A stretch of 64,000 nucleotides of DNA, from assembly GCF_003334785.1 (NCBI RefSeq), contig NZ_QOWV01000010.1; one strand, written 5' to 3'. Both the position numbers and the translations under genes were made by a program. Positions within the stretch are counted from its first letter, which is position 1, and each line of letters starts with the position of its first letter. The DNA comes from Escherichia coli (GTDB taxonomy: Bacteria; Pseudomonadota; Gammaproteobacteria; Enterobacterales; Enterobacteriaceae). This document shows positions 8,915 through 9,052 of the stretch, piece by piece. The notes under the pieces are model-generated. The model was not told the DNA's origin. It did not search any database and worked only from the letters and a program-made list of their open reading frames with translations.

Positions 8915-8994
8915 GCCCACAAATTTGAAGTAGCTCACACTTATACACTTAAGGCATGGATGGATATTGCTTCTGATATTGTCCGGCTGGACAA

Positions 8995-9023
8995 TGTTAC
9001 CGATAACAGTTACCCGTAACATT
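8995..9023. promoter_or_regulatory. GntR operator(s) in the gntKU promoter
   Basis: Two overlapping palindromes atgttaccgataacagttacccgtaacat (TGTTAC-N-GTAACA type) seen 30-60 nt upstream of gntK start; matches remembered GntR operator consensus. Confidence 0.7.
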
Positions 9024-9052
9024 TTTAATTCTTGTATTGTGGGGGCACCACT

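What the first reader, a model, noticed from the sequence alone, without database searches (positions are those of the whole stretch)
8990..9030. Tandem overlapping GntR palindromes upstream of gntK, with a matching site at gntT
Seen: atgttaccgataacagttacccgtaacat contains two overlapping inverted repeats (TGTTACCGATAACA and GTTACCCGTAAC). The gntT promoter, 31 kb away on the other strand, carries atgttacccgtatcattcacatg (40241-40263). The shared TGTTACCCGTA core links both gluconate transporters to the single gntR in the window.
Basis: partly seen in the sequence, partly recalled or inferred. Interest (0 to 1): 0.3.

Follow-up and report, generated by a model that had tools for sequence, protein, structure and literature searches.

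The report
Known GntR operators at gntK, gntT
These palindromes are the published binding sites where the E. coli gluconate repressor GntR switches off the gluconate kinase/transporter genes, so the finding is real but ordinary.

Summary
The window is E. coli K-12 (100% identical to MG1655). The sequence is as described. 8994-9022 holds two 16-bp palindromes of the type ATGTTA-N4-TAACAT, offset by 13 bp and sharing 3 bp. They lie between gntR and gntK. The gntT promoter carries ATGTTACCCGTATCAT at 40248-40263 on the minus strand.

A matrix built only from sites outside the window ranks these four sites as the top four of the 64 kb. None of 200 random sequences held four such sites. The double site is about 97% conserved across 78 distinct Enterobacteriaceae sequences, while its flanks are 52-56% conserved.

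The regulator is a LacI-family protein, not a member of the GntR superfamily. Both promoters share one design: a CRP box near -71, a weak -35, one operator over the -10/start site, and a second operator downstream.

All of this is published. Ravcheev 2014 cites the 13-bp overlapping gntKU sites as functional and conserved. Two synthetic-biology papers used these exact operator sequences.

Verdict: confirmed, interpretation supported, already known. The only open point is how two dimers fit on sites 13 bp apart.

The parts
7919..8914 (+). gntR, the gluconate repressor (LacI/GalR family, 331 aa)
   Evidence: NCBIfam equivalog NF011563, 776 bits against a cut-off of 433. Pfam LacI HTH plus Peripla_BP_1/3. 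MG1655 annotation.
8921..8942 (.). CRP-like box AAATTTGAAGTAGCTCACACTT (TTTGA-N6-TCACA), centre 8931.5, about -70.5 from the inferred gntK start
   Evidence: Read from the sequence. 93% mean identity across 78 Enterobacteriaceae sequences, while neighbouring intergenic DNA is 60-68%. The literature states that CRP-cAMP activates the gnt genes (PMC2230225). The position relative to the start site is inferred.
8967..8972 (+). Probable -35 hexamer TTGCTT of PgntK (inferred)
   Evidence: Every base is at least 90% conserved across genera. The alternative TTGTCC (8979-8984) is poorly conserved. The spacer to GACAAT is 17 bp. The strict consensus scan does not call it.
8990..8995 (+). Probable -10 hexamer GACAAT of PgntK (inferred); its last two bases are the first two of operator 1
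   Evidence: 98.7% conserved. It sits 17 bp after TTGCTT and puts the start site near 9002.
8994..9009 (.). gntK operator 1, ATGTTACCGATAACAG (one mismatch to ATGTTA-N4-TAACAT)
   Evidence: PWM 21.4 bits, rank 2 of 64 kb. 96.7% conserved. The identical 16-mer was used as a functional GntR operator in PMC10450161.
9007..9022 (.). gntK operator 2, CAGTTACCCGTAACAT, offset 13 bp from operator 1 and sharing bases 9007-9009
   Evidence: PWM 17.85 bits, rank 4. 91% conserved. The 13-bp overlapping gntKU sites are cited as functional in PMC4052901.
9053..9580 (+). gntK, gluconokinase (TTG start)
   Evidence: NCBIfam NF008583, 373.6 bits against 265. Annotation.
9584..10924 (+). gntU, low-affinity gluconate transporter, 3 nt after gntK; it has no operator of its own and is regulated through PgntK
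   Evidence: NCBIfam NF007781, 915.8 bits against 625. Annotation. No further motif hit in 9023-11000.
38771..40087 (-). gntT, high-affinity gluconate transporter
   Evidence: NCBIfam NF011560, 931.4 bits against 744. Annotation.
40107..40122 (.). gntT downstream operator O2: ACGTTACCCATAACAA on the minus strand, in the 5' UTR, 19 nt before the ATG, about +127 from the inferred start.
   Evidence: PWM 17.9 bits, rank 3. Conserved in Salmonella, Kosakonia-like, Shimwellia-like and one further enterobacterial locus, at 141-146 bp from O1.
40248..40263 (-). gntT operator O1, ATGTTACCCGTATCAT; its right half TATCAT (40253-40248) is the -10 hexamer
   Evidence: PWM 23.8 bits, rank 1. Invariant in 5 of 5 genera. 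The promoter scan finds TTCTCA-18-TATCAT. The same 16-mer was used as a GntR operator, with TATCAT as the -10, in bioRxiv 10.1101/2023.01.10.523462.
40272..40277 (-). -35 hexamer TTCTCA of PgntT
   Evidence: Promoter scan. The GATTCTC block is conserved.
40301..40322 (.). CRP-like box AATATGACCAACCTCTCATAAT (minus strand), centre 40311.5, about -70.5 from the inferred gntT start
   Evidence: Read from the sequence. ATGAC...TC.CA is invariant in 5 genera. CRP activation of gntT is stated in PMC2230225, citing Peekhaus and Conway 1998.

Best explanation
These are the operators of the E. coli GntI gluconate regulon.

Repression. GntR is a LacI/GalR-type dimeric repressor encoded at 7919-8914. Without gluconate it binds 16-bp palindromes of the type ATGTTAC-N2-GTAACAT.
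- At PgntK, two such sites sit head to tail, 13 bp apart (8994-9009 and 9007-9022). Together they cover the end of the -10 hexamer, the start site and about the first 20 transcribed bases, so RNA polymerase cannot form or leave an open complex. gntU follows gntK by 3 nt and is controlled through the same promoter.
- At PgntT, one operator (40263-40248) contains the -10 hexamer TATCAT. A second operator (40122-40107) lies about 141 bp downstream, just before the ribosome-binding site.

Induction. Gluconate, and at higher concentration 6-phosphogluconate, releases GntR.

Activation. Both promoters have weak -35 hexamers and a CRP box centred about 70.5 bp upstream of the inferred start. Full expression therefore needs cAMP-CRP as well. 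The genes are on only when gluconate is present and glucose is absent.

Shown here: the sites, their statistical significance, their conservation, the family of the regulator, and the shared promoter layout.

Taken from papers: binding, repression and induction.

Inferred: the exact start sites, and hence the -70.5, +1, +12.5 and +127 positions. Also inferred is that both overlapping gntK sites are occupied at once.
For: Identity of the locus:
- 100% identical to MG1655.
- All four proteins match NCBIfam equivalogs.
- GntR is LacI family.

Motif significance:
- Consensus search.
- PWM trained outside the window.
- De novo shared 16-mer among gntK, gntT, edd and idnK/idnD.
- The same motif lies at edd (L082 3783 and 4005) and at idnK/idnD (L083 5658).

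Footprints:
- The block 8990-9021 is 91-99% conserved in 78 distinct sequences from more than 20 genera. Its flanks are 52-56% conserved and carry indels.
- gntT O1 is invariant, and O2, the CRP box and the -35 are conserved, in 5 genera. One of them, the Shimwellia-like locus, has different neighbouring genes.
- Within E. coli, the operator 35-mer is perfect in 5314 of 5426 genomes, against 4930 for the adjacent 35-mer.

Both overlapping sites appear to be selected:
- The one variable base in the block, 9008, is A in 39 loci and T in 39, never C or G.
- A favours site 1 (21.1 against 15.7-17.6 bits). T favours site 2 (16.2 against 20.7 bits).
- Overlapping pairs offset by 14 bp recur upstream of gntT-like genes in Pantoea, Yersinia and Brenneria.

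Literature:
- PMC4052901.
- PMC10450161.
- bioRxiv 10.1101/2023.01.10.523462.
- PMC13386637.
- PMC2230225.
- PMC3877293.
Against: - The primary papers are not in the held library. These are Izu 1997, Porco 1997, Peekhaus and Conway 1998, and Tsunedomi 2003. Footprints, mapped start sites and the cooperative or looping model for gntT therefore rest on secondary citation or on my memory.
- The strict sigma-70 scan does not call a gntK promoter. The TTGCTT-17-GACAAT assignment rests on conservation only.
- Ravcheev et al. note that two LacI-type dimers 13 bp apart are hard to reconcile with known structures. Simultaneous occupancy is not established here.
- The O1-O2 distance at gntT varies from 141 to 146 bp among genera. 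That does not support a strictly phase-locked loop.
Confidence: 0.93

Rival explanations
1. This rival concerns only the sub-mechanism. The two overlapping gntK sites are alternative registers, and only one GntR dimer sits on the 29-mer at a time. Duplication then raises occupancy and broadens the occluded zone, but does not allow two dimers to bind together.
For: The 16-mers share 3 bp, and the consensus makes conflicting demands on all three shared positions (sequence). The summed PWM score of the two sites stays roughly constant (about 37-39 bits) whether base 9008 is A or T. PMC4052901 says dimers at this distance are hard to reconcile with structures of LacI-family complexes.
Against: Both sites are almost invariant over more than 20 genera, and the 5-bp cores (9003-9007 and 9009-9013) abut without overlapping. 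According to PMC4052901, the arrangement was shown to be functional, and 13 bp is a preferred distance across 110 operons. Neither point excludes alternating occupancy.
Confidence: 0.2
2. One of the two gntK sites serves mainly the paralogue IdnR/GntH, encoded outside the window, rather than GntR. The tandem would then be a two-regulator switch.
For: [quoted passage not shown] PMC4052901 states that GntR recognises IdnR sites. The idnK/idnD site ACGTTATGCGTAACAT has the same motif. IdnR is the next-best NCBIfam match of GntR, at 402 bits.
Against: The tandem pair also occurs in Pantoea, Yersinia and Brenneria loci next to gntR/gntK. Both sites score as good GntR sites. The presence of idnR in the 78 genomes was not checked.
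Confidence: 0.08
3. The inverted repeat acts as RNA, as a hairpin that terminates gntR transcription, with a run of T after 9022.
For: There is a 15-nt inverted repeat around 9008 followed by TTTTT.
Against: The RNA fold gives only -5.7 kcal/mol, z = -0.63, and 46 of 200 shuffles fold as well. The terminator scan finds nothing here. The T run is not conserved in other genera, while the palindromes are.
Confidence: 0.02
4. The palindromes are chance matches with no function.
For: Two other hits with 2 mismatches in the window look like chance: 3719 lies inside a CDS and 24731 lies in the glpD-glpE spacer.
Against: See the statistics, the cross-genus conservation, and the published functional use.
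Confidence: 0.01

Closest known systems
GntR-binding elements of the E. coli gntKU promoter (Izu, Adachi and Yamada 1997; Tsunedomi et al. 2003a)
   Same: It is the same object. The window is K-12 sequence. PMC4052901 describes the gntKU sites as overlapping at about 13 bp and experimentally functional. PMC10450161 uses the exact 16-mer of 8994-9009.
   Different: Nothing differs in substance.
gntT operators and CRP site (Porco et al. 1997; Peekhaus and Conway 1998)
   Same: It is the same object. ATGTTACCCGTATCAT, with TATCAT as the -10, is quoted from that work in bioRxiv 10.1101/2023.01.10.523462. Release of GntR by gluconate and 6-phosphogluconate, and activation by CRP, are quoted in PMC2230225.
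   Different: The downstream one (40107-40122) is found here by scan and conservation. Its description in the 1998 paper, and the proposed cooperative binding or looping, I recall from memory and could not re-read.
Overlapping 13-bp double sites of LacI-family regulators (Ravcheev et al. 2014, PMC4052901)
   Same: The gntK pair is the named example of this class. The offset is 13 bp, and the arrangement is conserved in more than half of GntR-regulated operons of gamma-proteobacteria.
   Different: Related gntT-like promoters in Pantoea, Yersinia and Brenneria use a 14-bp offset. At that offset the shared AT satisfies both sites, so there is no conflict between them.
lac O1/O2/O3 and gal OE/OI: a promoter operator plus a distant auxiliary operator
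   Same: gntT (O1 and O2, 141 bp apart) and edd (two sites, 222 bp apart) pair a promoter operator with a downstream one near the start codon. lac O1/O2 is arranged the same way.
   Different: GntR is 331 aa. Its alignments to LacI stop near LacI residue 316 of 360, so it appears to lack LacI's C-terminal tetramerisation helix (inference). Any loop would need another contact, as for GalR.
Bacillus subtilis GntR, founder of the GntR superfamily (winged-helix, Pfam PF00392)
   Same: It has the same name and the same physiological role, as a gluconate-released repressor of gnt genes (PMC2230225).
   Different: It is a different protein family with a different operator. The E. coli protein matches LacI HTH and periplasmic-binding-protein domains.

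Membership tests
E. coli-type (LacI-family) GntR operator | 16-bp palindrome close to ATGTTACCCGTAACAT (consensus quoted in PMC10450161) | tested here: met
   Mismatches over the 12 specified positions: 8994-9009 has 1, 9007-9022 has 2, 40248-40263 has 1 and 40107-40122 has 2. These are the top four PWM scores in 64 kb.
E. coli-type (LacI-family) GntR operator | A cognate LacI-family GntR is encoded in the genome | tested here: met
   gntR lies at 7919-8914. NCBIfam GntR equivalog, 776 bits against a cut-off of 433. Pfam LacI plus Peripla_BP.
E. coli-type (LacI-family) GntR operator | Sites overlap, or lie just downstream of, promoters of gluconate-catabolic genes | tested here: met
   gntT O1 contains the -10 of the only sigma-70-like promoter found on that strand. 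The gntK sites lie 30 nt upstream of the start codon and abut the conserved GACAAT. The same motif occurs at edd and idnK/idnD. Start sites were not measured here.
E. coli-type (LacI-family) GntR operator | Conserved in orthologous control regions while the flanks drift | tested here: met
   Sites are 91-97% conserved and flanks 52-56% in 78 sequences. gntT O1 and O2 are conserved in 5 genera.
E. coli-type (LacI-family) GntR operator | GntR binds in vitro or in vivo and is released by gluconate | not testable with these tools
   Literature only: PMC10450161, the bioRxiv cell-free sensor, PMC13386637 and PMC2230225 quoting Peekhaus and Conway 1998.
GntR-superfamily (FadR/HutC/YtrA winged-helix) operator | The regulator carries the GntR-type winged HTH (Pfam PF00392) | tested here: not met
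   The Pfam scan of the window's GntR gives LacI (PF00356) and Peripla_BP_1/3/4 only. There is no PF00392 hit.
Overlapping 13-bp LacI-family double site (Ravcheev 2014) | Two full sites in one intergenic region with centres about 13 bp apart | tested here: met
   The centres are 9001.5 and 9014.5. Direct repeat with 13-bp spacing. The pair is conserved in all 78 loci.
Overlapping 13-bp LacI-family double site (Ravcheev 2014) | Both sites are occupied and both contribute to repression | not testable with these tools
   PMC4052901 attributes this to Tsunedomi 2003a, which is not held in the library.
Class I CRP-dependent promoter | TGTGA-N6-TCACA-like box centred near -61.5, -71.5 or a further helical turn upstream of the start | tested here: inconclusive
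   Conserved boxes lie at 8921-8942 (TTTGA-N6-TCACA) and 40301-40322 (TATGA-N6-TCTCA). Both fall at about -70.5 only if the start sites inferred from the -10 hexamers are right.
Intrinsic terminator | Stable G+C-rich hairpin followed by a U run | tested here: not met
   The fold gives -5.7 kcal/mol with z = -0.63. The scan does not call it.

The most novel reading that the evidence does not exclude
Two GntR dimers bind the 13-bp-offset gntK sites at the same time, in a non-canonical geometry. Ravcheev et al. speculate about locally unwound or strongly bent DNA. The single shared base 9008 (A or T, never C or G, split 39 to 39 among 78 enterobacterial loci) then acts as an evolutionary see-saw. 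It sets which register binds more tightly, the -10/start-site one or the +12 one, and so tunes leakiness or induction kinetics between genera.
Probability: 0.15. Interest if true: 0.35.

Novelty: already known. Interest (0 to 1): 0.08.

Why it matters
It matters little for discovery. These are textbook control elements of a well-studied E. coli regulon, and they are already used as parts in synthetic biology.

The check has three uses:
- It completes the picture, with the second gntT operator, the CRP boxes and the shared promoter design.
- It corrects the family assignment: LacI family, not the GntR superfamily.

One question remains open in the field. How do two LacI-type dimers use full sites only 13 bp apart? 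The same arrangement is reported upstream of 110 operons (PMC4052901). The gntK 29-mer would be a convenient substrate for a structural answer.

Tried and rejected
- Primary papers. I tried PubMed ids 9537375 and 12618441, and PMC107090, PMC178870, PMC150117 and PMC107313. None is held. Details of footprints, mapped start sites and looping could not be verified.
- Promoter scan at gntK. The strict scan found no plus-strand promoter. My first manual guess, TTGTCC-17-GATAAC, was dropped because TTGTCC is poorly conserved. TTGCTT-17-GACAAT is conserved.
- RNA hairpin or terminator reading of the palindrome. Rejected: -5.7 kcal/mol, z = -0.63.
- Other motif hits in the window. These are 3719 (inside the yhhZ-like CDS), 24731 (glpD-glpE spacer, core GTTA changed to GATA), 2881 (inside the IS1 transposase) and 56622 (inside hslO). 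They score 15.4 bits or less, within the range of random maxima, and I judge them chance.
- Direct repeat TTCTGATATTGT / TTCTTGTATTGT flanking the operators. It lies in unconserved DNA and is probably chance.
- Literature searches for a mapped gntK start site and for gntT looping found no usable open-access text.
- No solved structure of this GntR with DNA exists in the PDB copy. The closest entry is 3h5o, a GntR homologue.

Full report
**What the window is.** Region 7800-11000 is 100% identical to E. coli K-12 MG1655 and is present in 5425 of 5426 complete E. coli genomes. The MG1655 annotation was laid over the whole window. It gives:
- gntR at 7919-8914 (+)
- gntK at 9053-9580 (+, TTG start)
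- gntU at 9584-10924 (+)
- gntT at 38771-40087 (-)

All four proteins pass the NCBIfam equivalog cut-offs for exactly these names.

**The observation.** Positions 8994-9022 read ATGTTACCGATAACAGTTACCCGTAACAT. This parses into two 16-mers of the type ATGTTA-N4-TAACAT:
- ATGTTACCGATAACAG at 8994-9009 (operator 1)
- CAGTTACCCGTAACAT at 9007-9022 (operator 2)

The two 16-mers share three bases. The repeat finder sees the same structure without prior knowledge. It reports two 13-nt direct copies at 13-bp spacing, and a 15-nt inverted repeat whose axis is base 9008.

The gntT site is as described. The reverse complement of 40248-40263 is ATGTTACCCGTATCAT.

One detail is inexact. The 11-mer TGTTACCCGTA is literally present only at gntT. 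At gntK the shared string is GTTACCCGTA.

On the gntT strand it reads ACGTTACCCATAACAA. It lies 19 nt upstream of the gntT start codon.

**More than chance.** Four tests agree.
- The consensus with up to two mismatches occurs 6 times, against 2.1 expected. None of 100 shuffles reaches 6.
- I built a weight matrix from eight sites that are neither in the window nor orthologous to its sites. Two come from E. coli edd and one from idnK/idnD. Five come from gntT-like promoters of Pantoea, Yersinia and Brenneria. The four sites are the four best scores in the 64 kb (23.8, 21.4, 17.9 and 17.85 bits). The best score in random 64-kb sequences averages 12.9 +/- 2.2 bits. None of 200 simulations held four sites at 17.85 bits or more.
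- A motif-blind search for the best shared 16-mer among the gntK, gntT, edd and idnK/idnD control regions returns GTTACCCGTAAC-type words. They score 40 of 48 matches against a null of 34.4 +/- 0.8, with a null maximum of 37.
- The remaining weak hits (3719, 24731, 2881, 56622) lie in coding sequence, in an IS1 element or in the glpD-glpE spacer. They score within the random range.

**Conservation at gntK.** A scan of one genome per species with GntR returned 80 loci from more than 20 enterobacterial genera. The gntR-gntK spacers gave 78 distinct sequences. Mean identity to E. coli is as follows:

| Segment | Coordinates | Identity |
|---|---|---|
| GACAAT | 8990-8995 | 98.7% |
| Operator 1 | 8994-9009 | 96.7% |
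| Operator 2 | 9007-9022 | 91% |
| Upstream flank | 8975-8989 | 56% |
| Downstream flank | 9023-9052 | 52% (with indels) |
| CRP-like box TTTGA-N6-TCACA | 8921-8942 | 93% |
| TGGATATTGCTTCT | 8960-8974 | 92% |

- **Promoter.** This pattern argues for TTGCTT (8967-8972), a 17-bp spacer, then GACAAT (8990-8995). The better-looking but unconserved TTGTCC-17-GATAAC is less likely.
- **Inferred positions.** The start then falls near 9002. That puts the CRP box near -70.5, operator 1 on the start site and operator 2 near +12.5.
- **Caveat.** These positions are inferences. The strict promoter scan calls nothing on this strand.
- **Within E. coli.** The 35-mer holding the operators is perfect in 5314 of 5426 genomes. 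The adjacent 35-mer is perfect in 4930.

**A detail of the overlap.** Inside the otherwise fixed 29-mer, one base varies: 9008. It is A in 39 loci and T in 39, and never C or G. This base is position 15 of operator 1, where the consensus wants A. It is also position 2 of operator 2, where the consensus wants T.
- With A, the scores are 21.1 bits (operator 1) and 15.7-17.6 bits (operator 2).
- With T, the scores are 16.2 and 20.7 bits.

The sum hardly changes. This is what one expects if both registers are under selection. The loci are phylogenetically related, so the 39-to-39 split is descriptive only.

**Conservation at gntT.** Loci encoding GntT orthologues were fetched for several genera.
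- In Salmonella, a Kosakonia-like locus, a Shimwellia-like locus and one more enterobacterial locus, O1 is invariant.
- O2 is conserved 141-146 bp downstream of O1.
- A CRP-like box (ATGAC...TC.CA) and the -35 block are also conserved.
- The Shimwellia-like locus has different neighbouring genes, so the control region travels with the gene.
- The promoter scan finds TTCTCA-18-TATCAT. TATCAT is the right half of O1.
- With a start near 40241, the CRP box (40301-40322) is centred near -70.5 and O2 near +127.

In Pantoea, Yersinia and Brenneria the gntT-like gene instead carries two overlapping sites offset by 14 bp. So the overlapping-pair design recurs.

**Mechanism.** GntR is a LacI/GalR-family protein, with a LacI HTH and a periplasmic-binding-protein fold. 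Its closest solved relatives are 3h5o, CcpA, PurR, RbsR and LacI.

The best-supported mechanism is classical steric repression by dimers on palindromic operators over the -10/start region. Each promoter has a second operator: 13 bp away at gntK, 141 bp at gntT and 222 bp at edd. Gluconate relieves repression, and CRP-cAMP activates.

The biochemical steps come from papers:
- Gluconate-responsive binding to ATGTTACCGATAACAG (PMC10450161).
- Repression and derepression through ATGTTACCCGTATCAT in a purified cell-free system (bioRxiv 10.1101/2023.01.10.523462).
- More than 5-fold GntR repression of PgntK and PgntT, with PgntK the tighter of the two (PMC13386637).
- Inhibition of binding by gluconate and 6-phosphogluconate, and CRP activation (PMC2230225).
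- GntR as a LacI/GalR subfamily with those effectors (PMC3877293).

From memory only: Peekhaus and Conway (1998) described both gntT operators and proposed cooperative binding. I could not re-read the paper.

**Rivals.**
- An RNA terminator is rejected: -5.7 kcal/mol, z = -0.63, and the T run is not conserved.
- Chance is rejected by the tests above.
- Two sub-mechanistic alternatives remain. In one, only one dimer occupies the 29-mer at a time. In the other, one site serves the paralogue IdnR/GntH. The tools here cannot decide between them.

**Comparison with what is known.** This is not a new member of anything. It is the published object itself. Ravcheev et al. 2014 (PMC4052901) make four relevant statements:
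- Overlapping LacI-family sites about 13 bp apart occur upstream of 110 operons.
- The arrangement was shown to be functional for the GntR sites upstream of E. coli gntKU (Tsunedomi 2003a).
- It is conserved in more than half of GntR-regulated operons of gamma-proteobacteria.
- Its structural basis is unexplained.

The name is misleading in one respect. The protein is not a member of the GntR superfamily.

**Verdict.** Interest is low. The only residual question is structural: how full sites 13 bp apart are used.

Noticed in passing
window 40107-40122: A second GntR-type site, ACGTTACCCATAACAA on the gntT strand, lies in the gntT 5' UTR, 19 nt before the ATG and 141 bp from the promoter operator. 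It is conserved in four other enterobacterial loci.
   Followed up: yes
window 8921-8942 and 40301-40322: Conserved CRP-like boxes (TTTGA-N6-TCACA and TATGA-N6-TCTCA) lie at about -70.5 from the inferred starts of both gntK and gntT. The two promoters therefore share one layout.
   Followed up: partly
window 9008: This is the only variable base inside the conserved double operator. It is A in 39 and T in 39 of 78 enterobacterial loci, and never C or G. A favours operator 1 and T favours operator 2, with a nearly constant summed score.
   Followed up: yes
L089 1285-1338 (Yersinia-like) and L090 1302-1355 (Brenneria): Here gntK and a gntT-like gene are divergent. They share a 30-bp near-palindromic composite, ATGTTACCGGTATCATGATACCGGTAACA(A/T), made of two sites offset by 14 bp. 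Each inner half is a TATCAT -10-like hexamer that faces outward. A perfect CRP box, TGTGA-N6-TCACA, follows directly.
   Followed up: partly
L082 3783-3798 and 4005-4020; L083 5658-5673 (MG1655, outside the window): The same motif occurs twice at edd: once in the zwf-edd spacer and once in edd codons 5-10, 222 bp apart. It occurs once in the idnK-idnD spacer.
   Followed up: partly
window 5658-5722 (+): RyhB small RNA (Rfam RF00057, 83 bits), between yhhY and yhhX. It was the only Rfam hit in the window at gathering threshold.
   Followed up: no
window 9609-9634 (+): A terminator-like hairpin with a T run lies just inside the 5' end of gntU. It may correspond to the partial termination between gntK and gntU that I recall from the older literature, which I could not verify.
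   Followed up: no
window 40362-40430 (-): A terminator-like hairpin (40380-40362) and a REP-like palindrome lie between nfuA and the gntT promoter. This part of the spacer is not conserved between genera.
   Followed up: no
window 2465-3162: An IS1A insertion lies next to the yrhA and Hcp1-family (yhhZ) genes. A weak GntR-motif match at 2881 lies inside its transposase gene and is judged chance.
   Followed up: no
window 24731-24746: GTGATATGTATAACAT in the glpD-glpE divergent spacer matches the GntR consensus with two mismatches but scores only 9.9 bits. It is probably chance, or part of the glp control region.
   Followed up: no
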